This document shows positions 1,054 to 29,916 of a DNA stretch of 40,060 nucleotides, one piece after another (position 1 is the first letter of the stretch; each line of letters begins with the position of its first letter). Below the pieces are notes generated by a model. The model did no database searches. It had not been told where the DNA came from and saw only the letters and a program-made list of their open reading frames with translations. The position numbers were made by a program, and so were the translations under genes. The stretch comes from a virus (Duplodnaviria; Heunggongvirae; Uroviricota; Caudoviricetes), in the IMG/VR virus record IMGVR_UViG_2563366805_000009. One strand, 5' to 3'.

Positions 1054-1241
1054 AAAAAATGCCCTCCAGTAGAGAGCATTTTTACTGTATGTATAACCAG
1101 TGTCAATGTATGAAATCCTACGACCATACATCTCACTGAAGCCATCATGAAGTTGGCTATTCTTTTTGCTATGTGAGCATGTAACTTTTGCGGTTAACCT
1201 GCGGCTCATTTTTATTTTAGACGCAGATATAAAAGCAAAAG

Positions 1242-1433
1242 TTATCGTGAGTTTTTAGTACAGATTTTTTTGGATTTACTAATAGTTCCATCATTGCAAA
1301 CGAATTTGCCATCTGAGGTACAGTGAGAAACACCTCCCTTTTTCCCTGAGCAGGGATAATTTCTAGCATAGGTAGTTAGTGGGTTTAATAACAAAGAACA
1401 TGACAAAACCACAAAAAATACCTTACCAAGCAT
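1242..1433 (-). CDS. Small secreted cysteine-containing protein (63 aa) with N-terminal signal peptide; AT-rich moron between cI and int
   Basis: ORF track; hydrophobic N-terminus [16 protein letters not shown], 4 Cys in mature part; GGGAGGA Shine-Dalgarno 5-6 nt upstream; starts 15 nt after the CI-like gene stop; AT-rich relative to flanks. Confidence 0.45.
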
Positions 1434-2948: not shown

Positions 2949-3245
2949 ATGCTGACGAAAGAACCATCATTTGCATCGCTGCTGGTAAAACAAAGCCCGG
3001 CAATGCACTACGGTCACGGCTGGATCACGGGTGAGGATGGAAAACGCTGGCATCCATGTCATTCACAAGATGAATTGCTGTCTGAATTGACCACGAGGAA
3101 ACGGAGAAAGTCCAAATGTATGCGGCAGAAAGTGAAGTGGTTTATCAGTTTCGTTACAGAGGGGAGAGTTATTCAGTACCTGAAGATGATTTGCTCTGTT
3201 GCTATCCGTCATTGTCGGGCGATGGCAGTTACTTTTTCGCGTTAA
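2949..3245 (+). CDS. Hypothetical early protein (fil position of 186-like phages); 3' end uncertain
   Basis: ORF track frame 2919..3245 with Met at 2949 (MLTKEPSF...); its last ~40 codons overlap the next ORF in another frame and look low-complexity, so the true end may be earlier. Confidence 0.35.
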   Translation: MLTKEPSFASLLVKQSPAMHYGHGWITGEDGKRWHPCHSQDELLSELTTRKRRKSKCMRQKVKWFISFVTEGRVIQYLKMICSVAIRHCRAMAVTFSR

Positions 3246-3340
3246 AGGATGGGACGTTTTTACGGGGAGAGCAGGTTAAAGAGACGATACGAAAAAATGT
3301 ATCTCCTCTTGAGCGTTACCGTAAGAACAAAGAACGATAG
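3116..3340 (+). CDS. Hypothetical early protein (dhr position of 186-like phages)
   Basis: 74-aa ORF with GGAGAAAG Shine-Dalgarno 7 nt upstream of the ATG. Confidence 0.45.
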   Translation: MYAAESEVVYQFRYRGESYSVPEDDLLCCYPSLSGDGSYFFALKDGTFLRGEQVKETIRKNVSPLERYRKNKER

Positions 3341-3362
3341 CTGCGTTTGGGGGATATGAAGT

Positions 3363-3704
3363 ATGGCAATTAATGGCGCTGCAGCAACTGTTCCATTAAG
3401 CCCCGGTGAACGCCTGAATGGACTTAATCACATTGCGGAGTTAAGGGCGAAAGTTTTTGGCCTGAATATTGAGTCAGAGCTTGAGCGGTTTATTAAAGAT
3501 ATGCGTGATCCACGGGATATCAATAATGAACAAAATAAACGGGCACTGGCTGCCATATTCTTTATGGCAAAAATTCCAGCTGAACGTCATAGCATCAGCA
3601 TTAATGAGCTGACCACTGACGAAAAGCGGGAGCTGATTAAAGCAATGAATCATTTTCGTGCAGTGGTGAGCTTATTTCCCAGACGGCTAACCATGCCGAA
3701 TTAA
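3363..3704 (+). CDS. Hypothetical phage early protein
   Basis: 113-aa ORF in the co-oriented early operon. Confidence 0.5.
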   Translation: MAINGAAATVPLSPGERLNGLNHIAELRAKVFGLNIESELERFIKDMRDPRDINNEQNKRALAAIFFMAKIPAERHSISINELTTDEKRELIKAMNHFRAVVSLFPRRLTMPN

Positions 3705-3765
3705 CCAACTAATGAAATTAATGGCGTAAACCCGCCGGGCATCCCTTTATCTAAATTCAGGAGAA

Positions 3766-4005
3766 TTGATTATGCGTAATATTGAAACCCTCACGACTAA
3801 AACCGGACCGGATGACGCAGGGCTTAATATTTTACTGACAGAGGCTCGTCTGGAAGAACGCCGGGCAAGGGCTGAAGCAATGGCAGCTCGCCTTGATAGC
3901 CTGGCGTGTCATATCTCATCCCGTCAGCTAAACCACGTGGAAGCGGCAGAACTGCTGCGTGTGACTGCTGAAGCAATCCAGAACGAAGCGCAGGAGATCC
4001 ACTAA
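3766..4005 (+). CDS. Hypothetical small phage protein (coiled-coil-like)
   Basis: 79-aa ORF, stop overlaps next start (TAATG). Confidence 0.5.
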   Translation: MIMRNIETLTTKTGPDDAGLNILLTEARLEERRARAEAMAARLDSLACHISSRQLNHVEAAELLRVTAEAIQNEAQEIH

Positions 4006-4232
4006 TGGCTGATGCAATGGATCTCGTACAGCAGCGCGTTGAAGAAGAACGCCAGCGCCATATCCGTGCTGCCCGTGCCAAAACGCCGGGCGTGTCCCGC
4101 GTGCTTTGCGTTGAGTGTGAAGCGCCAATTCCGCCAGCACGCCGCCGTGCCATTCCGGGTGTGCAGCTTTGCATTACCTGTCAGGAAATCGCAGAGCTGA
4201 AAGGCAAACATTACAACGGGGGGGCTGTATGA
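4005..4232 (+). CDS. TraR/DksA-family C4 zinc-finger protein
   Basis: CVECEAPI...CITCQE (C-x2-C-x17-C-x2-C) in a 75-aa ORF; P2-like phages carry such a protein upstream of A. Confidence 0.65.
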   Translation: MADAMDLVQQRVEEERQRHIRAARAKTPGVSRVLCVECEAPIPPARRRAIPGVQLCITCQEIAELKGKHYNGGAV

Positions 4233-5086
4233 GCACCATCCTGAAATGGGCGGGAAATAAAACCGCCGTAATGTCCGAACTGAAAAAACATCTTCCTGCT
4301 GGTCCGCGACTAGTTGAACCTTTCGCGGGTTCCTGTGCTGTGATGATGGAGACGGATTATCCCTGCTATCTGGTTGCGGATATTAATCCTGATTTAATCA
4401 ACCTCTATAAAAAGGTTGCCGCTGATTGTGAATCGTTTATATCTCGCGCCAAAGTTTTATTTGAGATCGCAAACAGGGAGGTGGCTTATTACAACATAAG
4501 GCAGGAGTTTAATTACTCAACTGAAATTACTGATTTCATGAAAGCGGTATATTTCCTGTATCTCAATCGTCACGGTTACCGTGGGTTATGTCGCTATAAC
4601 AAGAGCGGGCATTTCAACATTCCCTACGGTAATTATAAAAATCCGTATTTCCCTGAAAAAGAAATTCGCGCTTTTGCAGAAAAAGCCCAGCGAGCAACGT
4701 TTATCTGCGCCAGCTTTGATGAAACGCTGGCGATGTTGAAGGCGGGGGATGTGGTGTATTGCGATCCGCCTTATGACGGTACGTTTTCCGGCTATCACGC
4801 TGACGGCTTTACTGAAGATGACCAGTATCACCTGGCATCCGTTCTTGAACATCGGTCATCAGAAGGACATCCGGTCATTGTTTCTAACAGTGACACATCC
4901 CTGATCCGTTCGCTGTATCGCAATTTTACTCACCACTATATCAAGGTAAAACGCAGCATCGGCGTAGCAGCTGGTGAGAGTAAATCAGCAACAGAAATCA
5001 TTGCTGTTTCCGGGCCGCGCTGCTGGGTGGGATTTGATTATTCGCGTGGCGTGGATAGTTCTGCCGTGTACGGAGTACGTGCATGA
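4229..5086 (+). CDS. dam: Dam-family DNA adenine-N6 methyltransferase (orphan, phage-encoded)
   Basis: N-terminal KWAGNK...EPFAGS AdoMet-binding region and catalytic DPPY motif ([10 protein letters not shown]); start chosen at internal ATG 4229, overlapping the previous stop. Confidence 0.85.
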
Positions 5087-7497
5087 GCCATGCCGATATG
5101 AGCAACTGCTGCGGCTTTAACGAGGCTGCCGCATCGTTCTCATGGAACAGCCCGAAAAAGGCCATTAACCCTTATCTGGACCCGGCGGAAGTTGCGCCGG
5201 TTTCTGCGCTTTCAAACCTGATCACTCTGTACGCTGCCGATAACGAGCAGGAACAACTGCGCCGCGAGGCACTGAGTGATCAGGTCTGGGAGCGTTATTT
5301 CTTTAATGAATCCCGTGATCCTGTCCAACGCGAAATAGAGCAGGATAAGCTCATTAGCCGGGCAAAGTTGGCGCATGAGCAGCAGCGTTTTAACCCGGAC
5401 ATGGTCATTCTGGCAGACGTCAGCGCCCAGCCCTCCCATATCAGCAAGCCGCTGATGCAACGTATTGAATACTTCAGCAGCTTGGGCAGGCCAAAGGCTT
5501 ATTCCCGCTATTTACGTGAGACGATTAAGCCATGTCTGGAACGACTGGAGCATGTACGCGACAGCCAGCTATCTGCATCTTTTCGTTTTATGGCAAGCCA
5601 TGTAGGGCTGGACGGCCTGCTGATTCTGCCTGAAATGAGTCAGGATCAGGTGAAACGCCTGTCTACCCTTGTCGCTGCGCATATGAGCATGTGCCTTGAT
5701 GCAGCTTGTGGTGATTTGTATGCCACCGATGACGTTAAGCCAGAAGAAATCCGCAAGACATGGGAAAAGGTGGCAGCGGAAACCCTGCGTCTGGATGTCA
5801 TCCCGCCTGCGTTTGAGCAACTCCGTCGGAAAAGAAACCGCCGTAAACCCGTGCCCTATGAACTCATTCCGGGTTCGCTGGCGCGTATGTTGTGCGCCGA
5901 CTGGTGGTACCGGAAATTATGGAAAATGCGTTGCGAATGGCGGGAAGAGCAGTTGCGTGCTGTCTGCCTGGTCAGCAAAAAAGCATCTCCCTATGTCAGC
6001 TATGAAGCCGTGATGCATAAACGTGAGCAGCGCCGCAAGTCACTGGAGTTTTTCCGTTCTCATGAACTGGTGAACGAAGAGGGCGACACGCTGGATATGG
6101 AAGACGTGGTAAACGCCAGCAGCAGCAACCCGGCGCACCGCCGCAATGAGATGATGGCCTGTGTTAAAGGTCTGGAGCTTATCGCGGAAATGCGCGGTGA
6201 CTGCGCCGTTTTCTACACCATTACCTGTCCGTCACGTTTCCATTCCACGCTCAATAACGGCAGACCAAACCCAACCTGGACAAATGCGACGGTAAGACAA
6301 AGCAGCGATTATCTGGTCGGCATGTTTGCTGCATTTCGTAAGGCGATGCACAAAGCCGGGTTGCGCTGGTATGGCGTGCGGGTGGCTGAGCCGCATCATG
6401 ACGGTACAGTTCACTGGCACCTGTTGTGTTTCATGCGCAAAAAAGACCGCCGCGCCATTACTGCATTGTTGCGTAAGTTTGCCATCCGTGAAGACCGCGA
6501 GGAACTGGGTAATAACACTGGTCCACGCTTTAAATCTGAGCTGATAAACCCGCGCAAAGGAACGCCGACAAGCTACATCGCGAAATACATCAGTAAGAAC
6601 ATTGACGGGCGTGGTCTGGCTGGCGAGATCAGCAAGGAAACGGGTAAATCCCTGCGTGATAACGCTGAATACGTTAATGCCTGGGCGTCTCTGCATCGTG
6701 TTCAGCAATTCCGCTTCTTTGGTATTCCGGGACGTCAGGCTTACCGTGAACTTCGCTTGCTGGCTGGTCAGGCGGCAAGGCAACAGGGTGACAAAAAAGC
6801 AGGTGCGCCGGTACTGGATAACCCGCGTCTTGATGCCATTCTGGCTGCTGCTGATGCTGGTTGTTTTGCCACCTACATCATGAAGCAGGGCGGCGTACTG
6901 GTTCCCCGCAAATATCACCTCATCAGAACCGCTTATGAAATCAACGAAGAGCCAACCGCCTATGGCGATCACGGTATTCGTATTTATGGCATCTGGTCAC
7001 CCATTGCAGAGGGCAAGATCTGCACTCATGCAGTGAAGTGGAAAATGGTTCGTAAGGCCGTTGACGTTCAGGAGGCGGCAGCCGACCAGGGCGCTTGCGC
7101 CCCTTGGACTCGTGGCAATAACTGTCCCCTTGCTGAAAATTTGAACCAACATGAGAAAGATGAATCAGCAGATGGGGATACCAGAACGGACATTACCTGC
7201 ATGGATGACAAGGAATTGCACGATTACCTGCACAGTATGAGCAAAAAAGAGCGCCGGGAACTGGCAGCAAGATTGCGCCTGGTTAAACCGAAACGGCGTA
7301 AAGACTACAAACAGCGAATTACAGAGTATCAGCGTCAGCAGCTCGTCTATGAACTGAAGTCCAGAGGATTTGATGGCAGCGAGAAAGAGGTCGATTTGCT
7401 CCTTTGCGGTGGCAGTATTCCGTCAGGAGCAGGCCTGCGTATCTTCTATCGGAACCAGCGTTTGCAGGAAGATGATAAGTGGCGGAACATGTATTAA
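5083..7497 (+). CDS. A: Replication initiation endonuclease (P2 gpA family, rolling-circle)
   Basis: 804-aa ORF; HWHLL (HxH) motif and conserved Tyr-containing regions typical of gpA-type Rep; position after dam/TraR genes. Confidence 0.85.
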
Positions 7498-7591
7498 TCA
7501 CGCGGGTTAACAATTCGTGCTCTTAATAATACCAGGCATATCAGGCTGATGAACGTAAAAAAACGTTTTACATCAGTAAGATTATTATATA

Positions 7592-7607
7592 CTGTAAATA
7601 TAAACAG
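7592..7607. promoter_or_regulatory. LexA (SOS) box CTGT-N8-ACAG upstream of small ORF
   Basis: Sequence TACTGTAAATATAAACAGTG (7590..7609) matches consensus TACTGTATATATATACAGTA at CTGT/ACAG and an A/T-only spacer; about 45 bp upstream of ATG 7651, which has an AGGAGG RBS. Confidence 0.55.
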
Positions 7608-7749
7608 TGGTTATATGTACAGTATTGCGTATGGTGTTATAGGAGGAAAGATGCAGGACTATTTTTTGGAGTCTTTGAAGCTCCAGCGCATTGATTTTTT
7701 TCTTAAGCTTGTAGCGGCTAGTGAGTGTAGTGATGAAGAGAAGGGGCTA

Positions 7750-8902
7750 AATAGCTGCGCGGAATAGTAGATCACTGAAAGGGAACTCAGCCCGGATTGT
7801 GCGATCTGATCAATCGCCAAACCAACCAAAATCACCAACCGGACTGAGCGATGCCGATCATAGTACCAATACCCCGTGGCGAACGACGCCTGATGCAGAA
7901 AGCTATTCATAAAACGCGTGATAAAAATCATGCCCGCAGACTCACGGCCATGCTGATGCTTCATCGGGGTGAACGGGTCAGCGATGTTGCCAGAACTCTC
8001 TGTTGTGCCCGTTCATCCGTTGGTCGCTGGATTAACTGGTTTACGCACTCAGGTATTGAAGGCCTGAAATCCTTACCCGCAGGGCGCTCCCGACGCTGGC
8101 CTTTTGAACATATCTGCACCCTGTTACGTGAGCTGATAAAGCATTCTCCCGGCGATTTTGGTTATCAACGTTCACGCTGGAGCACCGAATTACTGGCAAT
8201 AAAAATCAATGAGATAACCGGTTGCCAGTTACATGCAGGAACCGTTCGCCGCTGGTTGCCATCTGCGGGGCTTGTATGGCGCAGGGCCGCGCCAACTCTG
8301 CGTATCCGTGACCCACATAAAGATGAAAAGATGGCGGTAATCCACAAAGCGCTGGATGAATGCAGCGCAGAGCATCCGGTATTTTATGAAGATGAAGTGG
8401 ATATCCACCTTAATCCTAAAATCGGTGCGGACTGGCAGTTGCGCGGACAGCAGAAACGGGTAGTGACGCCGGGGCAGAACGAAAAATACTATCTGGCCGG
8501 CGCACTGCACAGTGGCACGGGTAAAGTCAGCTACGTGGGCGGCAACAGCAAAAGTTCAGCGCTGTTTATCGCTCTGCTGAAGCACCTGAAAGCCACTTAC
8601 CGGCGGGCGAAAACAATCACGCTGATCGTTGATAACTACATTATCCATAAAAGCCGCGAAACACAGCGCTGGTTGAAAGCAAATCCCAAGTTCAGGGTAA
8701 TTTACCAGCCGGTTTACTCGCCGTGGGTGAATCATGTGGAACGGCTATGGCAGGCACTTCATGACACGATAACCCGTAATCATCAGTGCCGCTCAATGTG
8801 GCAGTTACTGAAAAAGGTCCGCCATTTTATGGAAACCGCCAGCCCATTCCCCGGAGGAAAACATGGTCAGGCAAAAGTGTAGCGGTATTAGGCGCAGCTA
8901 TT
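7750..8902 (+). mobile_element. IS630-family insertion sequence (1153 bp) with TA target duplication in a CTAG target
   Basis: Terminal inverted repeats AATAGCTGCGC at 7750..7760 and 8892..8902 (reverse complement); TA at 7748..7749 and 8903..8904; flanks reconstitute C-TA-G; single 343-aa transposase ORF; length equals IS630 as recalled. Confidence 0.85.
7851..8882 (+). CDS. IS630-family (Tc1/mariner-like DDE) transposase
   Basis: 343-aa ORF with HTH N-terminus and DDE-type C-terminus (…VDNYIIHKS…), inside the TIR-bounded element. Confidence 0.9.
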   Translation: MPIIVPIPRGERRLMQKAIHKTRDKNHARRLTAMLMLHRGERVSDVARTLCCARSSVGRWINWFTHSGIEGLKSLPAGRSRRWPFEHICTLLRELIKHSPGDFGYQRSRWSTELLAIKINEITGCQLHAGTVRRWLPSAGLVWRRAAPTLRIRDPHKDEKMAVIHKALDECSAEHPVFYEDEVDIHLNPKIGADWQLRGQQKRVVTPGQNEKYYLAGALHSGTGKVSYVGGNSKSSALFIALLKHLKATYRRAKTITLIVDNYIIHKSRETQRWLKANPKFRVIYQPVYSPWVNHVERLWQALHDTITRNHQCRSMWQLLKKVRHFMETASPFPGGKHGQAKV

Positions 8903-9026
8903 TAGCTCTGCAGTGGGTTTCTGAATTGACTGATGAGTTGATGGCGAAAATTCGAAGCCATGAATACAGTAGGTCGATGGATGTAATCAGTTGAGCTTGT
9001 TTCGTTAGGACTTGATAAGGGAACCG

Positions 9027-9049
9027 AAAAGGGGCATTAAGCCCCTTTC
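9027..9049. terminator. Bidirectional Rho-independent terminator-like hairpin
   Basis: AAAAGGGGC-ATTAA-GCCCCTTT, T-rich on the plus side and A-run (T-run on minus) on the other; lies between the interrupted small gene and the convergent lipoprotein gene. Confidence 0.45.
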
Positions 9050-9061
9050 TCATAAGTTGAT

Positions 9062-9361
9062 TTAGTTGTTCCCCAAAGAGCCGGCCATGGCTGCATATTT
9101 AATTTCTTCGCTGGGTATTTCAGGATGTAGTTGAATTTGCCTGATGATATAGCCAGGAACTTCGTCACTCCACAGTTTCGCCGCGTCCTTACAGACCTTA
9201 TACGCGAAGTCTCTATTCTCAAAGGCATAGGATTTTCCGTATGCATATTGCTGACAGGCATGAACATAAGCTCCGAAGTCGCCGTCTTTATCTGGCAAAG
9301 CACATCCAGCTAAGGCTATGATGATTGCTACTAACGTAAAGGAGAAAGTTATACGTTTCAT
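9062..9361 (-). CDS. Small lipoprotein (99 aa), function unknown
   Basis: Signal peptide with lipobox (LAGC) at N-terminus; ORF track. Confidence 0.6.
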   Translation of the reverse strand: MKRITFSFTLVAIIIALAGCALPDKDGDFGAYVHACQQYAYGKSYAFENRDFAYKVCKDAAKLWSDEVPGYIIRQIQLHPEIPSEEIKYAAMAGSLGNN

Positions 9362-9469
9362 GGTCTCTTTCTAAGCGTTTAGCATTATTTAACTAAGGGG
9401 TATCTGCCGTGATTTGGTAGTCCCTGATATATATTCTCAGGGACTATGCTGAAGTAGCTTTAATTTTGA

Positions 9470-10276
9470 TTATTTAGAAAGGTACTTATCTCTAAGTTGA
9501 TTCAGTCTGTCAGCATCGCGTTCTGAAAACTCGGCGTCACCATAGATCGATTTCCCATCTGCGTCTTCAAGGCCAATGACTGTGACGGTAAATATAGCAT
9601 CAGCCGGAACTTTAAGTTTTCCCCAATCAGAGTATCTATTAGGGGCTAATTTCCAGTTGGCTTTCTCACCTGGTTCCAGACCTCCAGAAATTTTATAGTT
9701 GAAGACGTCAGAGAACCAAGGGACGCTTCTTCCTGGGCTGGCAATAACTCCTTTGAAGAATACTCTGGCAACCGCTTTGTCTGTTCCGTTTTCAACGCTA
9801 ATATCCAGAATTGGCTGATCATTGCCGTAATCCTCTTTCTGGAAATAAAAACGGGAACGTTCGACCTTGAAGGCTTTCATTTTTTCCGCAGCCTGTGTTG
9901 CAGAGGTTTGTTTGGCTTCCAGTTCTTTTATTTCTTGCAGAGCCTGTTCTTTCTCTCTCTTCTCACGCTCAAGGCGAATAGTTTGTGCGTAATTTATAAC
10001 CTCATCACCAGTTTTACCTTCCAACGCTGACTTAATTTTTGTTTCGTAGACGTCCCCAGAAGACGTTCCAGCCTGCATTAGCTCTCTCATGTTGATTTGG
10101 CTAAAGGCAACGACTTTAACTGCATCATCAAACTGAGCTTTTTTATCTGCAGGTAAGGACTCTCTTACTTTTTGAATGGACTCTTTCATCGACTGATCGC
10201 TTGATGCATCGATCTTCGGTTTGTCACAAGCAGTAAGCAGCAGAGCAAAAGCAATTACGCCAGTTAATTTCTTCAT
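9470..10276 (-). CDS. Lipoprotein (268 aa), function unknown
   Basis: Start moved to internal ATG (MKKLTGVIAFALLLTAC…, lipobox LTAC); charged coiled-coil-like middle region; ORF track 9470..10348. Confidence 0.6.
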   Translation of the reverse strand: MKKLTGVIAFALLLTACDKPKIDASSDQSMKESIQKVRESLPADKKAQFDDAVKVVAFSQINMRELMQAGTSSGDVYETKIKSALEGKTGDEVINYAQTIRLEREKREKEQALQEIKELEAKQTSATQAAEKMKAFKVERSRFYFQKEDYGNDQPILDISVENGTDKAVARVFFKGVIASPGRSVPWFSDVFNYKISGGLEPGEKANWKLAPNRYSDWGKLKVPADAIFTVTVIGLEDADGKSIYGDAEFSERDADRLNQLRDKYLSK

Positions 10277-10437
10277 ATCCCTATCCCAATCGTAAAAAAA
10301 CAAGGCTAATCCTAACAGGATTAGCGGGCATGACAAACTCATAGCCATATAGGTGTGCTGTATAAATTAGCGGGATGAGAAAGCCTGCACAGACCCTCAT
10401 GTTGAAACTTGATTTTAGCTCAAAAGAGCTGACACTA

Positions 10438-10824: not shown

Positions 10825-10983
10825 CGCGCGCTCGCTTAGTTTTGTAACACTCTGAGTAAGGTCGCTTTTTAGAAGCAAATGGCTTGCAAATTTTTTCAAC
10901 ATTGAGGTAATTTGTTAGGTATCGAAGGATAAATTAAGACAAGAGCAAATTCTTATTGCTTTTTGGATGACTAGGTGCAAGTT

Positions 10984-12090
10984 ATGACAGGTAGTGTCCC
11001 AGTAGTGCTTTCTGAGTCTGAGTTAAAGTCGATCTTGACCTTAACTGAACGTTTCACATGGAACGTTGCAAGGCCAATTATTGCGTCTTTAGGGCTGCCA
11101 ACAGGTAGGGGGCGTGAAGCAACAAACGAAAAAATACTAGAAAGCCTCATTGATCTTAAAAGTAAAGATAGGCAAAAGTTTGATGGCATTATGGCAAACG
11201 TAAATGACCTAATTTTGGGTCAGGTCGTTTATGGTGAAAAAGCAATATTTAGTTTGACTGTAGATAATAGTGTAATTAAAACACTAAATGACAGATTTAG
11301 TTTCCAATGGAATTTGATGAATCAACCATCATTATTGGTTGATTCGATCCTTGATGATGTCCAATTGCAAAATGCTGTAAAAAATCAACCTGAACTTGTT
11401 AATTATTCTATTCAAAACACCCAGTCAATACTTGTTTTTTCATCTGTCAGAGAATTAGTTGTAAGAGAAAAAATTCCCCCGTCAGCACTTGCGCAATACA
11501 AGCAGTTTGATGAAATTATTGCAAAGCGAAAAGAAAAGCGACAATGTTTTGATGTCTGTATATTAGACTCTGTTACTAATAAAATTCATGTTTTGGTAGA
11601 TACTAATGGTAATATTATTGGTGATAATGTTACTTTTGCAAAGAGTAACATTATTCGTGAATTGTATAATCATGTCGGTTATGAATTTAAATCATCGGAA
11701 AAAGATTTTTATCCGTTAATTGAGCCAATTTTCAAACAAAATTCATTGCCTTATTCAAAATTAAGCTATAAAGTCTTTGATTTGTCATTTTTGACGAATG
11801 AGGGGACTACGCATAAAGAAAAGAAAAATGTGGCCACTAAAGACTTACGTGATGATTTGTTTAATAAGGAAGGCATCAAAGCAGTAGGCAGTATTGGTTT
11901 GTATCGTATTGGAATTAGAGTTGATAGAAATAATCCAAAACTGCAATTAGCGGATAACGTAGAGCTTATCATTCCGGGAACACTCCGCAGGCATCTAGGA
12001 GGGAGTAGTTGCTCTCCTGTTAACTATGCTATATTAAGTAAATGTATATCCAAAGATGATTTCGAAACCCTCACAAAGCTGATATTATAA
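10984..12090 (+). CDS. Hypothetical protein, gene 1 of AT-rich three-gene operon (368 aa)
   Basis: ORF track 10975..12090 (GTG); ATG 10984 preferred, AGGTG RBS 6 nt upstream; no P-loop, no nucleotidyltransferase GS…DxD or RT YADD motif seen by eye; strongly AT-rich. Confidence 0.6.
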   Translation: MTGSVPVVLSESELKSILTLTERFTWNVARPIIASLGLPTGRGREATNEKILESLIDLKSKDRQKFDGIMANVNDLILGQVVYGEKAIFSLTVDNSVIKTLNDRFSFQWNLMNQPSLLVDSILDDVQLQNAVKNQPELVNYSIQNTQSILVFSSVRELVVREKIPPSALAQYKQFDEIIAKRKEKRQCFDVCILDSVTNKIHVLVDTNGNIIGDNVTFAKSNIIRELYNHVGYEFKSSEKDFYPLIEPIFKQNSLPYSKLSYKVFDLSFLTNEGTTHKEKKNVATKDLRDDLFNKEGIKAVGSIGLYRIGIRVDRNNPKLQLADNVELIIPGTLRRHLGGSSCSPVNYAILSKCISKDDFETLTKLIL

Positions 12091-12102
12091 TTGGAGTCAG
12101 CA

Positions 12103-12537
12103 ATGAAGGATGGTGATATGCCCAAGATCATCAAAGAAATGTGTGCAGAACGCCCTGAAATTGGGGCGTTAGCTTGCTATTTGTACGATGAAATCGAGGC
12201 AAGGGCTAAAAAATCATCAAATATAGCTTTAAGTTATAAGGATTTATTTAATATAGCTGGTGGTTATAATAAGGTTTTACAGCCAGAAACGTATGAGCAG
12301 GTTATCTATCCGGCCATACAAATTCTTTGTAGCCCAAAGGTTGATTTTTTAAAACTCAATTATTGGTTCATTGATGATTTTCATGACCCTGTAGAACTTG
12401 AAATAGAGGAAGTTATTGAGGCGGAAATCAGTCAATCTTTAGCAAACCCATTTACAGGGGAGCTTATGTATGACTATAAGTCATTCGTATTTCCTTTTTT
12501 TACATTAGATGAATCTAAATCAAAGGATATTATCTGA
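12103..12537 (+). CDS. Hypothetical acidic protein, gene 2 of operon (144 aa)
   Basis: ORF track 12091..12537 (TTG); ATG 12103 with GGAG 6 nt upstream; begins 12 nt after gene 1 stop. Confidence 0.55.
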   Translation: MKDGDMPKIIKEMCAERPEIGALACYLYDEIEARAKKSSNIALSYKDLFNIAGGYNKVLQPETYEQVIYPAIQILCSPKVDFLKLNYWFIDDFHDPVELEIEEVIEAEISQSLANPFTGELMYDYKSFVFPFFTLDESKSKDII

Positions 12538-13202
12538 TGTTAAAAATGTCTGCAGCAATGAGTTTGGCTGATATTGATAATGATATTTTTCTTCAGCGTA
12601 TTAATGCTTCTATTACTCGTGTTAGATTTGCACTTCAATCGTACGATAATTTCAAACAATTTGTCAGGATTGAACTTGATTCTGCTGTAAAGGAAATAGA
12701 AGAGAATTCAAATAAGTTAAACTTCGATTTAACAGAAGATCAGCTTACTTTAATTTTATTGGCCAATATCAAAAATAAAGATATGGGCATTGAAGCATTT
12801 CATGAAAATAATCAGCGCGGACATTGTGATATTACAATAAAACTAAAGGATTATATTTGGCATGGCGAAGCCAAAAAACATACATCTTCATATAGTTATT
12901 TATTTAAAGGGTATGCTCAACTCACTGAACGATATAGTACAGGGACCGTAGACAGCGCAAGTGGTGGATTGATTATCTATACTCGTAATAGAAAATGTAA
13001 TGAAATGATGAGCAACTGGAAGGCGCATTTAGATAAATTCGCACCAAGAATTCATGCCTGTAAATCTATAACGATTACTCCTTGTCAAAAAAATCCATTG
13101 GTTTTTTATAGCCAGCATGTTCACACAGTTACTCAACTGAATTATGAAGTTATTCATTACCCTGTAAATCTATATCATGAGCCTGTAGATCCGGATCTTT
13201 AA
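12537..13202 (+). CDS. Hypothetical protein with PD-(D/E)xK-like nuclease motif, gene 3 of operon (221 aa)
   Basis: Start overlaps gene 2 stop (TGATG); motif …AFHENNQRGHCDITIKLKDYIWHGEAKKH (E…D-x13-E-x-K). Confidence 0.55.
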   Translation: MLKMSAAMSLADIDNDIFLQRINASITRVRFALQSYDNFKQFVRIELDSAVKEIEENSNKLNFDLTEDQLTLILLANIKNKDMGIEAFHENNQRGHCDITIKLKDYIWHGEAKKHTSSYSYLFKGYAQLTERYSTGTVDSASGGLIIYTRNRKCNEMMSNWKAHLDKFAPRIHACKSITITPCQKNPLVFYSQHVHTVTQLNYEVIHYPVNLYHEPVDPDL

Positions 13203-24518: not shown

Positions 24519-25897
24519 GCACAAAATTTTATACCCTGCTGACGGATATTGGCGCGGCGAAACTTGTCAGCGCCGCCGCGCTCGGTGTGCCGCTAAAAAT
24601 TACCCATATGGCGGTGGGCGATGGTGGCGGAACATTGCCGACGCCGGACGCAAAGCAGAGTGCACTGGTAAATGAGAAACGTCGGGCTGCGCTGAATATG
24701 CTCTATATCGACCCACAGAACAGCAGCCAGATTATTGCTGAACAGGTGATCCCTGAAAACGAGGGCGGTTGGTGGATACGTGAAGTGGGCCTGTTTGATG
24801 AGTCAGGGGCATTGATTGCCGTGGGCAACTGCCCGGAAAGCTATAAGCCGCAACTGGCTGAAGGCAGCGGGCGTACCCAGACCGTGCGCATGGTGCTGAT
24901 TACCAGCAGCACGGACAATATCACCCTGAAAATCGACCCTGCTGTAGTGCTGGCAACCCGCAAGTATGTGGATGACAAGGCACTGGAGCTGAAGGTGTAC
25001 GCGGATGATCAGATGGCAAAACATCTTGCCGCACCGGACCCGCATTCACAGTATGCAGCCAAAGAAAGTCCTACGTTTACCGGGACACCCAAAGCGCCAA
25101 CGCCAGCGACGGGGAATAACACCACGCAGGTTGCGACCACCGCATTTGTTCAGGCGGCACTGACGGCTCTTATTAATGATGCGCCAGCCACGCTGGACAC
25201 GCTGAAAGAAATAGCCGTAGCCATTAACAATGATCCGAAATTCAGTACCACCATTAACAATGCGCTGGCACTGAAAGCGCCGCTGTCGAGTCCGGCACTC
25301 ACCGGAACGCCAACCGCACCGACTGCGGCACAGTCGGTCAACAATACACAGATTGCCACCACGGCATTTGTGAAATCGGCGATTGCGGCAATGGTGGGTT
25401 CTGCACCTGCGGCACTGGATACACTGAACGAACTGGCGGCGGCGCTGGGGAATGACCCGAACTTTGCCACGACAATGCTTAATGCACTGGCAGGTAAACA
25501 ACCGCTGGACAATACGCTGACTCATTTGAGTGGAAAGGATGTTGCTAGTCTTCTCGCATACCTTGGTTTGGGAGAAGCGGCAAAACGGAATGTGGGAACA
25601 GGGGAAAATCAGATACCTGATATGTCATCATATGCATCAGGTTCAGGCTGGCGAAAAATGCCAGATGGTTCAATTGAACAGTGGGGACGAATTAGTTTTC
25701 CTGGTGAACACGGGCCTGTATCCGCCAATGTTTCATTCCCGATTCCATTTACACAGACACCTGGCATTGTAATTGTGTGCGATGGTGGTTTCGGGGGCGG
25801 GAATATGTGGGGGGCGACCAACTGGAGCACTACCGGCTTCATAGCTCACTGCAATTATGGTCTTGAAGGTGGTGCGTTTTTCGCTAAGGGCTGGTAA
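24515..25897 (+). CDS. H: Tail fibre protein H: constant N-terminal part fused to the currently expressed variable C-terminal segment (25565..25897)
   Basis: 460 aa; conserved N-terminus [17 protein letters not shown]…; repeats …TTAFV…; crossover site lies inside the gene at 25551..25576. Confidence 0.85.
25551..25576. other. Invertase crossover site (left, inside H): TTCTCGCATACC-TT-GGTTTGGGAGAA
   Basis: 26-bp imperfect dyad with central dinucleotide, resembling hix/gix/cix/pix sites (…AAACC-NN-GGTTT…); marks the left end of the mirror symmetry. Confidence 0.55.
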
Positions 25898-26340
25898 TGA
25901 TGAAATATCTGTACGTAAACAACCTGGCATATCCTTACGAACTTCAGTCTCTTTATGTTGAAAAAGGTGAATGGCCTGAAGAAAAAGGTGTTGATATAGA
26001 CGAAGTAATTTTCAGGGAATATTTCTATGACACACCACCAGAAGGAAAATACAGATGTGTTGGAGAAGATGGACTGCCTGCATGGGCAGATATTCCTCCA
26101 CCAACACGTGAAGAACAAATTGCATCAGCCGAAACTAAAAAGCAGCAATTGATTAATCAGGCCAACGATTATATGAACAGTAGACAATGGGTTGGTAAAG
26201 CGGCTATTGGTCGTCTGAAAGGTGAGGAACTGGCGCAATATAATTTGTGGCTGGATTATCTGGACGCACTGGAGCTGGTCGATACTTCCGGTGCACCAGA
26301 TATTGAATGGCCTACGCCTCCGGCAGTTCAGGCCAGATGA
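25897..26340 (+). CDS. Tail fibre assembly protein (Tfa) for the expressed fibre tip
   Basis: 147 aa directly after H stop (ATGATGAAA overlapping); size and C-terminal conservation typical of Tfa. Confidence 0.75.
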   Translation: MMKYLYVNNLAYPYELQSLYVEKGEWPEEKGVDIDEVIFREYFYDTPPEGKYRCVGEDGLPAWADIPPPTREEQIASAETKKQQLINQANDYMNSRQWVGKAAIGRLKGEELAQYNLWLDYLDALELVDTSGAPDIEWPTPPAVQAR

Positions 26341-26914
26341 CATCCGGCGCGGTGCTGGTATCTGTTGCCGTCACCGCGTCAATGTAATCCAGCACGGCGT
26401 TAAGGCGGGTTGTTTCTGCCTGCGTCAGCTTCCGTCCGGCCTGTAATTTCAGTTGAATCAGACTGATGGAGGCCATTGCAGTATCAATCAGCGACTGGCG
26501 CTGTGCTTCTGCTGCATCTACTGCTGCGCCGTGCTGTGCCTCAGTATCGGTCACCCATTTCTCACCATCCCATTTATCGTATGGCGTTAACGGGGCGATA
26601 GTGGTTGTATTTTCAGGGTAATCACCCGGAGTTGTGATTTCTTTGGCTTCTCCCGTTTCGGTGTTATAGACGATTTCACCGCGATGGTCTGGCACATATT
26701 CCCATGAGTTAAAATCTGCAGAACGGCAGATAGCATAACCAGCCTTATATGTGCCTGGTGAATCTAAACAGGAATATGCCGGGATACCAACACCAACGGC
26801 AAGATATTCATTTGAAGTGGAAATATATTCCCGTATTTCACCATCATAGTTATAGACGGTAATATTCCCTGCCTTCGTGGCAATAATCTCGCTATTTAAT
26901 ACAGCGTTATCCAT
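26312..26914 (-). CDS. Tail fibre assembly protein (Tfa) of the alternative fibre
   Basis: 200 aa, convergent with the other tfa; follows the alternative fibre tip on the minus strand. Confidence 0.75.
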   Translation of the reverse strand: MDNAVLNSEIIATKAGNITVYNYDGEIREYISTSNEYLAVGVGIPAYSCLDSPGTYKAGYAICRSADFNSWEYVPDHRGEIVYNTETGEAKEITTPGDYPENTTTIAPLTPYDKWDGEKWVTDTEAQHGAAVDAAEAQRQSLIDTAMASISLIQLKLQAGRKLTQAETTRLNAVLDYIDAVTATDTSTAPDVIWPELPEA

Positions 26915-27393
26915 TATGCAGCCCTCACAATATAATTAAAGGCAATGTTACGTGGGCGGTTCTCATTTGCGGTTGGGACAACGGCTGAAGCATTAAAATT
27001 CGCATACAGGGAGCGTTGATACCCGGATGCTGATGCACCACTTAATGCGGGAGCTTTTGACTCCGAAGCCGAAAAGGCCCCTGACACGTATCCTAATAAC
27101 CCTTGTGAATCGCCAATTGAACTGTAGCCAACCACCCCGGTAATGTTTCGGATAGCATCTCCTTGTGCTGAAAGCAGAGTTCGCCCACTATCCACTCCCT
27201 TTCCACCATCCCAGCCACGAATAAACTCACCGCGTAAATCAGGCAATTTTAACGTCGGGTAAGCCTTTGCCAGATTAGGGTAATCTTCAGCAGAAAAAGC
27301 CGCACCGTTGCATTTCAGCCAGCCTGTTGGCGGTGTGGCTGAAGGCCATGGAACAGGCACACCAACAGGCAGCGCAGAGCCTTCCCCTAAACC
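26914..27393 (-). CDS. Alternative tail-fibre C-terminal segment (promoterless; becomes fused to H after inversion)
   Basis: In frame from the crossover core (…GLGE-GSALPVGVPVPWP…); the ORF-track N-terminal extension (MHFSQPVGG…) is antisense of the copy-2 coding sequence and is not considered real. Confidence 0.6.
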   Translation of the reverse strand, partial: GLGEGSALPVGVPVPWPSATPPTGWLKCNGAAFSAEDYPNLAKAYPTLKLPDLRGEFIRGWDGGKGVDSGRTLLSAQGDAIRNITGVVGYSSIGDSQGLLGYVSGAFSASESKAPALSGASASGYQRSLYANFNASAVVPTANENRPRNIAFNYIVRAA

Positions 27394-27407
27394 AACGTTT
27401 AAGAAAA
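27382..27407. other. Invertase crossover site (centre 1): TTCCCCTAAACC-AA-CGTTTAAGAAAA
   Basis: Outer half identical to the pin-proximal site's outer half; inverted relative to the left site. Confidence 0.5.
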
Positions 27408-29294: not shown

Positions 29295-29349
29295 TGCAGA
29301 GGTAACAGCTAACTGGCATCATCTCCGGTTTTTATTCAGGGGGATGATC

Positions 29350-29916
29350 ATGCTTATTGGCTATGTACGCGTGTCAACAAATGACCAGAACACCGATTTG
29401 CAACGTAATGCACTGAACTGCGCGGGATGTGAGCGGATTTTTGAGGACAAAATCAGTGGCACTAAGTCCGACAGACCGGGGCTGAAAAAACTACTCAGGA
29501 CACTATCGGCAGGAGACACGCTGGTTGTCTGGAAGCTGGACAGGTTGGGGCGCAGTATGCGGCATCTTGTTACGCTGATAGAAGAGTTGCGCCAGCGTGG
29601 TGTGAATTTCAGAAGCCTGACTGACAGTATTGATACCAGTACCCCAATGGGCCGTTTCTTTTTTCATGTCATGGGTGCCCTGGCTGAAATGGAACGCGAA
29701 CTGATAGTTGAACGTACCAGGGCAGGGCTGGCTGCAGCTCGTGCCAAAGGCAGAGTAGGTGGACGCCGTCCTAAGTTGACCACCGAACAGTGGGCACAGA
29801 TTGGGCGTTTACTCGAGGCCGGAGAATCAAGACAGCGTATTGCACTGATTTTTGATGTAGGCGTTTCTACCATTTATAGAAAATTTCCGGCAAATAAGAT
29901 CAATGAATCCCCCTGA
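29350..29916 (+). CDS. pin: Serine-recombinase DNA invertase (Hin/Gin/Cin/Pin family)
   Basis: N-terminus MLIGYVRVSTNDQNTDLQRNAL with catalytic Ser; …VVWKLDRLGRSM… and C-terminal HTH; near-identical to the recalled e14 Pin / P1 Cin N-terminus. Start at second ATG (AGGGGG RBS). Confidence 0.9.
   Translation: MLIGYVRVSTNDQNTDLQRNALNCAGCERIFEDKISGTKSDRPGLKKLLRTLSAGDTLVVWKLDRLGRSMRHLVTLIEELRQRGVNFRSLTDSIDTSTPMGRFFFHVMGALAEMERELIVERTRAGLAAARAKGRVGGRRPKLTTEQWAQIGRLLEAGESRQRIALIFDVGVSTIYRKFPANKINESP

What the first reader, a model, noticed from the sequence alone, without database searches (positions are those of the whole stretch)
7590..8994. IS630 has split a LexA-box-controlled small gene immediately downstream of the replication gene
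A near-consensus SOS box (TACTGTAAATATAAACAGTG) sits ~45 bp upstream of an ATG with a strong RBS. The ORF is cut after 33 codons by a 1153-bp IS630 copy inserted at CTAG with TA duplication; excising it in silico restores a 62-aa frame. In 186-family phages the SOS-controlled gene at this position is the antirepressor tum, so this may have removed SOS inducibility. The reconstructed protein is far shorter than I recall Tum to be, so the identity is uncertain.
Basis: partly seen in the sequence, partly recalled or inferred. Interest (0 to 1): 0.6.

Follow-up and report, generated by a model that had tools for sequence, protein, structure and literature searches.

The report
IS-split Tum antirepressor of a prophage
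A jumping gene of the IS630 family has landed inside the small DNA-damage-controlled "tum" gene that a P2/186-like E. coli prophage needs to wake up, so the prophage is probably stuck in its dormant state; all the components are well known.

Summary
A 1153-bp IS630-family element (7750..8902, TA duplication in a CTAG target) splits a 62-codon gene after codon 33. That gene sits behind a conserved LexA-box promoter just downstream of replication gene A.

Removing the IS in silico gives DNA 100% identical to 16 complete E. coli genomes. The whole window is 99.97% identical to the E. coli MS 115-1 prophage, apart from the IS and one flipped tail-fibre segment.

The size puzzle has a published answer. 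In Fels-2 and PsP3, the 146-aa 186 Tum is split into an upstream antirepressor gene (TumA, about 60 aa) and a downstream DinI-like gene. The 62-aa protein matches the N-terminal half of 186 Tum by profile-profile comparison (96.5% probability). It is 98% identical to ECHS_RS04495 of E. coli HS prophage DuoHS, whose deletion abolishes mitomycin-C-induced lysis.

SOS inducibility has therefore most likely been lost, which is an inference. Extras:
- The operator is a colicin-type pair of overlapping LexA boxes.
- The CTAG target arose from a lineage-specific synonymous change.
- The promoter now points into the transposase gene.
- A second LexA box lies in the integrase promoter.

This is an ordinary, well-explained pseudogenisation of low to moderate interest.

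The parts
5083..7497 (+). Replication gene A (context; the tum unit starts 150 nt downstream)
   Evidence: PF05840 Phage_GPA, E 8e-128.
7567..7572 (+). Inferred -35 hexamer TTTACA of the tum promoter (equivalent of 186 p95)
   Evidence: Conserved across Felsduovirus, Elveevirus and Gegevirus relatives while flanking bases diverge. It has the same -35 / 17-18 nt / TACTGT layout as the annotated 186 p95. The tool's consensus promoter scan did not call it.
7590..7609 (.). LexA box 1, TACTGTAAATATAAACAGTG. Its left arm TACTGT doubles as the inferred -10.
   Evidence: 17/20 to consensus, and 0/100 shuffles reach this. Invariant in relatives.
7605..7624 (.). LexA box 2, CAGTGGTTATATGTACAGTA. It overlaps box 1 by 5 nt and has a weak left arm.
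   Evidence: Heterology index about 7.9-11.4. Its right arm is conserved in relatives. The box1+box2 unit is 90.5% identical over 42 nt to the operator in front of a colicin-like tRNase bacteriocin gene on pCKO3.
7641..7646 (+). Ribosome-binding site AGGAGG of tum
   Evidence: Read directly; conserved.
7651..7749 (+). tum 5' part, codons 1-33 (helix 1, loop, start of helix 2)
   Evidence: AlphaFold2 model with helices 2-23 and 28-61, pLDDT 90.
7651..7767 (+). Truncated ORF as it now stands: Tum 1-33 plus NSCAE, then stop
7748..7749 (.). Left copy of the duplicated target TA (in CTAG)
   Evidence: The BLAST segments against MS 115-1 overlap by exactly these 2 nt.
7750..8902 (+). IS630-family insertion sequence, 1153 bp, with the transposase on the same strand as tum
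   Evidence: It is absent from the otherwise 99.97%-identical MS 115-1 prophage.
7851..8882 (+). IS630-family transposase gene (343 aa)
   Evidence: PF13358 DDE_3 plus HTH domains; NF033545 at 258 bits.
8903..8904 (.). Right copy of the duplicated target TA
8905..8994 (+). tum 3' part, codons 34-62 plus stop. It holds the most conserved residues A34, W37, E40, L41 and L45.
8863..8994 (+). Hybrid ORF: an IS-borne GGAGG-N5-ATG, 14 IS-encoded residues, then Tum 34-62 in frame (43 aa). Expression and function are unknown.
9028..9048 (.). GC-rich hairpin (AAAGGGGC-ATTAA-GCCCCTTT) between tum and the convergent cargo gene. It is the likely bidirectional terminator. No DinI-like tumB follows in this lineage.
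   Evidence: Read directly. Not called by the terminator scan. Gene order in L002 and L013.

Best explanation
The window carries an otherwise intact Fels-2/DuoHS-like (186-type, P2-family) prophage of E. coli, integrated between rcdA and ybjL.

In intact relatives the 62-aa gene behind gene A is the TumA-type antirepressor:
- LexA, probably as two dimers on a pair of overlapping boxes covering the -10 and the transcription start, keeps its promoter shut.
- DNA damage activates RecA, LexA cleaves itself, and Tum is made.
- Tum is a predicted two-helix hairpin that binds the 186-type CI repressor, takes it off its operators and starts lytic growth.

Here an IS630-family element has transposed into the TA of a CTAG at codon 33/34. 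That target was created in this lineage by a synonymous CTG-to-CTA change. The insertion separates helix 1 from helix 2, so no full-length Tum can be made. The prophage should keep immunity and its cargo genes but no longer respond to the SOS signal.

Shown here: the anatomy, the homology, the existence of the uninterrupted allele, and the recency of the event.
Shown in the literature for orthologues: tum is required for mitomycin-C induction, and the upstream half is the antirepressor.
Inferred: LexA binding at these boxes, Tum-CI contact, and loss of inducibility in this strain.
For: - Insertion anatomy.
- Empty site: the excised sequence is 100% identical to 16 E. coli genomes.
- Recency: the window is 99.97% identical over 38.9 kb to the MS 115-1 prophage and flanks. 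The only structural differences are the IS and an inverted tail-fibre segment.
- Protein family: the reconstructed protein matches phrog_698 end to end, E 1e-37. It has 485 close homologues, almost all 60-100 aa.
- Homology to the 186 Tum N-half and PsP3 TumA: hhalign 96.5%, E 8e-10.
- Annotations: PsP3 tumA/tumB; 186 p95, LexA site and tum.
- Literature on the split: the upstream half is the antirepressor in PSP3 and Fels-2 (PMC3121763).
- Genetics in the orthologue: ECHS_RS04495 is 98% identical. [quoted passage not shown]
- The Fels-2 operon STM2726-2728 is induced by a mutagen (PMC2225428).
- Cognate repressor: the CI is 186-type.
- LexA box statistics and conservation.
- Structure: the IS removes nearly all of helix 2 and the near-invariant A34, W37, E40, L41 and L45.
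- The gene is normally kept intact: 1099 of 1101 E. coli genomes that carry it have a continuous copy.
Against: - No experiment on this strain exists.
- Pairwise BLASTP of the 62-aa protein against 186 Tum finds nothing, so homology rests on profiles.
- Pfam and NCBIfam have no model for the family.
- The promoter does not meet the consensus scan criteria.
- lexA(Ind-) blocks the whole SOS response, so it does not prove that LexA binds here.
- Both halves of tum are still present, and the 3' half has an in-frame IS-borne start with a strong Shine-Dalgarno. Residual activity is therefore not excluded.
- A related co-resident prophage could supply Tum in trans, and only 40 kb of the genome is visible.
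Confidence: 0.8

Rival explanations
1. The prophage is still SOS-inducible despite the insertion. Three routes are possible:
- The two Tum fragments (1-33+5 aa, and the IS-initiated 14 aa + 34-62) are both made from the LexA-controlled read-through transcript. They reassemble, or the helix-2 fragment alone still binds CI.
- A co-resident related prophage supplies Tum in trans.
- The IS excises.
For: - The hybrid ORF 8863..8994 is in frame and preceded by GGAGG-N5-ATG.
- tum, the transposase and the hybrid ORF are all on the + strand, with no recognisable terminator before about 9028.
- The fragment keeps the most conserved residues.
- Trans-acting antirepressor cross-talk between prophages is documented for Gifsy and Fels-1 (PMC3121763).
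- Some E. coli genomes hold 2-3 copies of this tum family.
Against: - A covalent helical hairpin cut at the start of helix 2 usually loses stability.
- The read-through transcript must cross 1.15 kb, including 84 nt of untranslated leader.
- IS630-family excision leaves a double-strand break rather than a clean repair (PMC2170065).
- No second tum copy is visible in the window.
Confidence: 0.1
2. The main consequence is for the IS rather than the phage. The insertion places a tightly LexA-repressed promoter 250 nt upstream of, and co-oriented with, the IS630-family transposase gene, so transposase expression and transposition become DNA-damage-inducible. This is compatible with the best explanation and is an added effect.
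For: The promoter and boxes at 7567..7624 and the transposase at 7851..8882 are on the same strand. The truncated tum ORF stops at 7767. No terminator-like site lies between them.
Against: This is purely positional. Many IS elements protect themselves against outside transcription, which I state from general knowledge and did not test. No expression data exist. Translation of the transposase from a read-through mRNA is unknown.
Confidence: 0.15
3. The 62-aa gene is an SOS-induced gene with some other role, such as a DinI-like modulator or a toxin. Its disruption would then not affect induction.
For: No curated family model names it, and most database entries call it hypothetical.
Against: - Deleting the 98%-identical DuoHS gene alone abolishes mitomycin-C lysis.
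- It is homologous to the antirepressor half of Tum, not the DinI half.
- The DinI-like function is a separate adjacent gene in relatives.
Confidence: 0.03
4. The insertion is an assembly artefact, for example a repeat collapsed into the wrong place.
For: No other genome among 5426 complete E. coli genomes or the GTDB species representatives shows this junction.
Against: The element is complete at 1153 bp. It has a precise 2-bp TA duplication at the family's preferred CTAG target, and the flanks rejoin perfectly. A misassembly would not produce a target duplication.
Confidence: 0.02

Closest known systems
tum (ECHS_RS04495) of prophage DuoHS, E. coli HS (PMC12055606)
   Same: - 61/62 residues are identical.
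- Same position after gene A and the same operator and RBS.
- Same chromosomal integration site (rcdA | ybjL).
- 186-type CI.
- Genetically required for mitomycin-C induction.
   Different: - DuoHS has a DinI-like gene right after tum. This lineage has a hairpin and convergent lipoprotein cargo instead.
- DuoHS has CTGG where this lineage has the CTAG target.
- Here the gene is split by an IS.
Fels-2 STM2728 and PsP3 TumA (the upstream halves of the split tum)
   Same: - About 60-aa stand-alone gene behind a LexA box, downstream of gene A.
- Fels-2 STM2728 is 95% identical.
- PsP3 TumA belongs to the family matched at 96.5% by hhalign.
   Different: - PsP3 TumA is only about 20% identical in the MAFFT alignment and belongs to the 186 sequence branch.
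- Both phages keep tumB (DinI-like).
Tum of coliphage 186 (146 aa; antirepressor plus DinI-like half)
   Same: - LexA-repressed promoter with TACTGT serving as both the -10 and the left arm of the box.
- Acts on a 186-type CI.
- The N-terminal approximately 45 residues align in register.
   Different: - 186 Tum is a fusion with a DinI-like C-terminal half.
- 186 has a single LexA box.
- orf97 follows tum in 186.
- No pairwise BLASTP similarity.
Double overlapping SOS boxes of colicin and bacteriocin operons
   Same: - Two LexA boxes offset by 15 nt.
- 38/42 nt identical to the operator of a colicin-like tRNase bacteriocin on pCKO3.
- More than 1000 plasmid records match.
- The literature links the double box to very tight repression of lethal genes (PMC2994835).
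   Different: - It controls a prophage antirepressor, not a bacteriocin.
- Shared ancestry cannot be separated from convergence on the LexA consensus.
- LexA occupancy was not tested.
IS630 (Shigella sonnei), Tc1/mariner/IS630 family
   Same: - TA duplication and a CTAG target.
- Single DDE transposase with N-terminal HTH domains, and short terminal inverted repeats.
   Different: PGAP labels identical copies 'ISEc33 family'. The exact ISfinder name was not determined.
GfoA/GftA antirepressors of Gifsy prophages and AntC of N15
   Same: They work alike: small LexA-controlled proteins that inactivate a non-cleavable phage repressor (PMC3121763).
   Different: No sequence relationship was tested or claimed, and the gene order and repressor family differ.

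Membership tests
Tum/TumA antirepressor of 186-type phages | Sequence homology to the N-terminal (non-DinI) half of 186 Tum | tested here: met
   hhalign of the 24-sequence family profile against the 16-sequence Tum-N/TumA profile gives 96.5% probability and E 7.9e-10 over 49 columns, with residues 1-44 in register. Pairwise BLASTP is negative.
Tum/TumA antirepressor of 186-type phages | Located directly downstream of replication gene A in a P2/186-family genome | tested here: met
   Gene A is at 5083..7497 and the tum ATG at 7651. The order is the same in Fels-2, DuoHS, PsP3 and 186.
Tum/TumA antirepressor of 186-type phages | Promoter overlapped by a LexA operator | tested here: met
   Met at sequence level only: box 1 is 17/20 to consensus with 0/100 shuffles, and the boxes are conserved. 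LexA binding itself was not tested.
Tum/TumA antirepressor of 186-type phages | Cognate 186-type CI repressor that lacks RecA-mediated self-cleavage | tested here: inconclusive
   The CI has PF07022 plus PF16452, so the 186-type architecture is met. Peptidase_S24 scores only 16 bits, below its cutoff. Absence of self-cleavage is inferred from 186 and was not tested.
Tum/TumA antirepressor of 186-type phages | Binds CI and is required for SOS induction | not testable with these tools
   Genetic evidence exists for the 98%-identical DuoHS gene and is reported for PSP3.
Full-length 186 Tum (fusion form) | DinI-like C-terminal domain in the same polypeptide | tested here: not met
   The ORF ends at 62 codons. 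No DinI-like gene follows in this lineage. 186 Tum residues 72-142 hit the DinI model. This gene is therefore the TumA form, not the fusion form.
IS630 family insertion sequence | DDE transposase of the IS630 family | tested here: met
   NF033545 at 258 bits against a cutoff of 100; PF13358 DDE_3.
IS630 family insertion sequence | TA target duplication, with a CTAG preference for IS630 itself | tested here: met
   TA lies at 7748-49 and 8903-04, and the restored site reads CTAG. Family behaviour is described in PMC2170065, whose reference list includes Tenzen & Ohtsubo 1991.
IS630 family insertion sequence | Terminal inverted repeats | tested here: met
   AATAGCTGCGC matches 11/11, then AATA after 2 mismatches.
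Colicin-type double SOS operator | Two overlapping LexA boxes bound by two LexA dimers | tested here: inconclusive
   The sequence layout is met and is 90.5% identical over 42 nt to a bacteriocin operator. Box 2 is weak on its own, with a heterology index of about 8-11. Occupancy by two dimers is not testable here.

The most novel reading that the evidence does not exclude
The insertion is more than a knock-out. It fuses a colicin-grade, doubly LexA-locked promoter to the IS630-family transposase, so DNA damage would trigger transposition. In addition, the IS's outward-reading GGAGG-ATG produces an in-frame helix-2 fragment of Tum. Alone or with the helix-1 fragment, that fragment would keep partial, attenuated antirepressor activity. 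The result would be a re-tuned induction switch rather than a dead one.
Probability: 0.06. Interest if true: 0.55.

Novelty: already known. Interest (0 to 1): 0.25.

Why it matters
It explains, at single-gene resolution, why one otherwise intact P2/186-like prophage should be blind to DNA damage. That is useful when predicting which prophages in a genome can still be induced by antibiotics such as fluoroquinolones or mitomycin C.

It also shows that automatic annotation hides this function. About 20% of complete E. coli genomes carry this tum family, everywhere labelled 'hypothetical protein'.

Three details could seed small experiments:
- the synonymous change that created a rare CTAG target;
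- the colicin-like double LexA operator;
- the LexA box in the integrase promoter.

None of these changes the known picture of Tum-mediated induction.

Tried and rejected
- BLASTP of the 62-aa protein against 186 Tum found no alignment. Profile comparison superseded this.
- Pfam, NCBIfam and PDB sequence searches found nothing for the 62-aa protein.
- The consensus promoter/terminator scan of the intact allele gave 0 sites. The promoter is inferred from conservation and the annotated 186 p95 instead.
- The minimal LexA motif alone is not above chance, so I used the 20-mer and conservation.
- The left-junction search in GTDB representative genomes gave 0 hits. The junction search in complete E. 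coli genomes gave 0 spanning hits. The origin strain was therefore not identified.
I re-ran it with P0007. It returned only small proteins and no Tum-DinI fusions.
- Bunny et al. 2002 (PMC151935) is not held, so I cite it only through Lemire et al. 2011.
- I considered that CI might self-cleave like lambda CI. It has only a sub-threshold S24 hit and the DuoHS delta-tum phenotype argues against it, so I rejected this as the main route.
- I did not run a fold search on the 62-aa hairpin model, because matches to a two-helix hairpin would be uninformative.
Full report
**1. What is in the sequence**

- Gene A, the P2/186-type rolling-circle replicase (PF05840, E 8e-128), ends at 7497.
- A 150-nt intergenic region follows. 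It holds TTTACA (7567..7572), then 17 nt, then TACTGTAAATATAAACAGTG (7590..7609).
- AGGAGG lies at 7641..7646 and the ATG at 7651.
- The ORF runs for 33 codons and is then broken by a 1153-bp element (7750..8902).
- The element has 11/11 terminal inverted repeats (AATAGCTGCGC) and a 343-aa transposase on the same strand (7851..8882).
- It is flanked by TA on both sides. The restored target reads CTAG.
- The transposase hits DDE_3 and the NCBIfam IS630-family equivalog (258 bits, cutoff 100).
- Identical copies in RefSeq E. coli are labelled 'IS630-like element ISEc33 family transposase'.
- Joining 7749 to 8905 gives a 62-codon ORF: MQDYFLESLKLQRIDFFLKLVAASECSDEEKGLALQWVSELTDELMAKIRSHEYSRSMDVIS.

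**2. Is it real and more than chance**

- The in-silico excised 406-bp sequence is 100% identical to 16 complete E. coli genomes.
- A BLAST of the whole window against E. coli MS 115-1 gives 99.97% identity over all 38.9 kb. There are only two structural differences: the IS, with the two flanking segments overlapping by exactly the duplicated TA, and an inverted 1.8-kb tail-fibre segment. The insertion is therefore a very recent event in an otherwise intact prophage sitting between rcdA and ybjL.
- The junction itself is found in none of 5426 complete E. coli genomes and in none of the GTDB species representatives.
- The minimal motif CTGT-N8-ACAG is not significant on its own (1 found, 0.64 expected).
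- The 20-mer LexA consensus with up to 3 mismatches matches only here, and in 0 of 100 shuffles.

**3. What the gene is**

The prophage is 186-type. It has:
- a CI with PF07022 plus PF16452;
- CII/CP76, Fil, and a DksA-like zinc-finger protein;
- a gene in the position of the DNA adenine methylase of Fels-2, DuoHS and MS 115-1.

The reconstructed protein matches phrog_698 end to end (E 1e-37). It has no Pfam, NCBIfam or PDB match.

It is 95% identical to Fels-2 STM2728 and 98% identical to E. coli HS ECHS_RS04495. In those phages a DinI-like gene follows immediately.

PsP3 annotates the equivalent pair as tumA ('similar to 5' end 186 tum; UV induction of prophage') and tumB (DinI-like).

Lemire et al. 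[quoted passage not shown] Pairwise BLASTP against 186 Tum finds nothing. I therefore built a 24-sequence profile of the 62-aa family (using distant members) and a 16-sequence profile of the 186 Tum N-half and TumA. hhalign gives 96.5% probability and E 7.9e-10 over 49 columns, in register from residue 1.

The decisive functional evidence is in PMC12055606. The authors deleted 'tum (locus tag ECHS_RS04495)' in the E. coli HS prophage DuoHS. The mutant, like lexA(Ind-), no longer lysed or formed virion foci after mitomycin C. ECHS_RS04495 is the 189-bp gene directly after the replication endonuclease.

In Salmonella, the operon STM2726-STM2727-STM2728 is induced by the mutagen MX (PMC2225428).

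This is the TumA form, the antirepressor half without the DinI half.

**4. The operator**

An alignment of the upstream regions from the window, DuoHS, Fels-2, SopEphi, a Yersinia Elveevirus and a Klebsiella Gegevirus shows a clear footprint.

- TTTACA is conserved.
- TATACTGT-N8-ACAGTGG is conserved.
- A second right arm, ATACAGT(T)AT, is conserved.
- The sequences between and around these elements drift.

So there are two overlapping boxes, 7590..7609 (strong) and 7605..7624 (weak left arm GTGG).

That is inside the 0.9-9.3 range of the training sites. Box 2 scores 7.9-11.4.

The 186 record annotates p95 with -35 TTCACA, an 18-nt spacer, and -10 TACTGT, which is the left arm of its LexA box. 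The same layout (TTTACA / 17 nt / TACTGT) holds here and in the more distant ESSI2-type phage, which has a single box. The generic promoter scan does not call it, so the promoter is inferred.

The box1+box2 unit is 90.5% identical over 42 nt to the operator in front of a colicin-like tRNase bacteriocin gene on pCKO3, and to those of more than 1000 other plasmid records:
- bacteriocin operator: TACTGTATATAAAACCAGTGGTTATATGTACAGTATTT
- window: TACTGTAAATATAAACAGTGGTTATATGTACAGTATTG

[quoted passage not shown] The same logic fits an antirepressor whose leakage would kill the lysogen. I cannot tell whether the resemblance is common descent or convergence on the LexA consensus.

**5. What the insertion does**

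An AlphaFold2 model of a close homologue (P0074, 89% identical; pLDDT 90) is a two-helix hairpin, with helices at 2-23 and 28-61.

The IS cuts after residue 33. The N-terminal product (33 + 5 aa) lacks nearly all of helix 2, along with the near-invariant A34, W37, E40, L41 and L45.

This lineage has no tumB or orf97 downstream, only a GC-rich hairpin (9028..9048) and convergent lipoprotein cargo. Tum is therefore the only casualty.

By analogy with DuoHS delta-tum, the prophage should be non-inducible by DNA damage while keeping immunity and cargo. This step is inferred.

**6. Why there**

CTAG is very rare in this DNA: 13 sites in the 38.9-kb excised window against about 151 expected from base composition. 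Two of the 13 lie in the 189-bp tum gene.

The site that was hit exists only in the MS 115-1-type allele. A synonymous CTG-to-CTA change at Leu33 created it. DuoHS, Fels-2, SopEphi and others have CTGG or CTTG there.

IS630-family elements duplicate TA. A reference in PMC2170065 gives the CTAG preference of IS630. Target availability alone can thus explain the hit, and selection for a locked-in prophage is not required, though it is not excluded.

Disruption of tum is rare. Of the 1101 complete E. coli genomes that carry the family, 1099 have a continuous copy. One exception, strain CH4794, has an independent IS4-like (ISVsa5 family) insertion a few codons away, with the two gene halves annotated as pseudogenes.

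**7. Secondary consequences (speculative)**

The LexA-controlled promoter now points into the co-oriented transposase gene. The truncated tum ORF stops at 7767, the transposase ATG is at 7851, and there is no recognisable terminator between them. Transposase expression could therefore become SOS-responsive.

The right end of the IS carries GGAGG-N5-ATG (8863). That start reads out of the element in frame with Tum residues 34-62, giving a 43-aa hybrid ORF. Whether it is made or active is unknown.

**8. Comparison and verdict**

The system works like, and is a member of, the Tum/TumA antirepressor family of 186-type phages, in its stand-alone form. It is not the 146-aa fusion form, because the DinI half is neither fused nor adjacent.

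The mobile element is an IS630-family IS with all the family hallmarks.

Everything essential is already described in the literature. What is particular here is the allele, an IS-split tum in an otherwise intact prophage, plus a few regulatory details. Novelty: already known. Interest: low to moderate (0.25).

Noticed in passing
window 1083..1102 (with TTGACA at about 1103..1108, minus strand; integrase ATG at about 1053): A second strong LexA box (minus strand CACTGGTTATACATACAGTA; heterology index about 3.8-4.7, better than the tum box) sits between a perfect -35 TTGACA and a TAAAAAT -10-like element. It lies about 30 nt upstream of the integrase start codon. The integrase therefore appears to have its own LexA-repressed promoter. 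The element is conserved in E. coli HS DuoHS and in Klebsiella phages with the same integrase type.
   Followed up: partly
window 7590..7624 vs L007:1501..1542 (pCKO3): The tum operator is a colicin-type pair of overlapping SOS boxes. It is 90.5% identical over 42 nt to bacteriocin operators on more than 1000 plasmid records. It is unclear whether this is shared ancestry (a portable LexA-locked promoter module) or convergence.
   Followed up: partly
window 10975..13202 (+), three ORFs of 371, 148 and 221 aa: A three-gene cargo block lies between tum and the portal gene, a variable cargo position that differs among relatives. From memory, this region is known as an anti-phage defence hotspot in P2-like phages. 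The block has no Pfam, NCBIfam or PADLOC hit apart from one sub-threshold Rep3_C match. It could be an uncharacterised defence or accessory system.
   Followed up: partly
window 25560..27395, with recombinase gene 29344..29916: A tail-fibre segment is inverted relative to E. coli MS 115-1. It is flanked by duplicated tail-fibre and assembly ORFs in both orientations and lies next to a serine recombinase (Resolvase plus HTH_7). This is an invertible host-range switch of the Mu G-segment type, caught in the other orientation.
   Followed up: partly
L014 (E. coli CH4794, NZ_CM166349.1) 3001..4527: An independent disruption of the same tum gene: an IS4-like (ISVsa5 family) element is inserted around codon 35, a few codons from the site hit here. 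This genome is one of only 2 of 1101 tum-carrying complete E. coli genomes that lack a continuous copy; the other was not examined.
   Followed up: partly
window 7747..7750 vs relatives: The CTAG hit by the IS was created by a synonymous CTG-to-CTA (Leu33) change specific to the MS 115-1-type allele. CTAG is about 12-fold under-represented in the window, with 13 sites against about 151 expected.
   Followed up: yes
window 8863..8994: The right end of the IS630-family element contains GGAGG-N5-ATG reading outward with an open frame to the IS tip. Insertions in the right frame can therefore create N-terminally tagged fusions to downstream coding sequence, here Tum 34-62.
   Followed up: no
window 1242..1433 (-) and 9062..10348 (-): The prophage carries small secreted or lipoprotein morons. 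One is a 63-aa Cys-rich protein between cI and int (NCBIfam PRK10040-type 'hypothetical protein'). The others are a 99-aa protein (phrog_7666) and a DUF6694 lipoprotein downstream of tum. These replace the DinI-like tumB and orf97-type genes of relatives. In strain ECONIH4 the DUF6694 gene is itself split by IS1.
   Followed up: no
E. coli complete genomes: This tum family is present in 1101 of 5426 complete E. coli genomes, including B-strain derivatives such as C41(DE3) and NEBExpress. It is annotated 'hypothetical protein' in every row shown, and occasionally 'levan regulatory protein' in other sources. The antirepressor function is therefore invisible to standard annotation.
   Followed up: no
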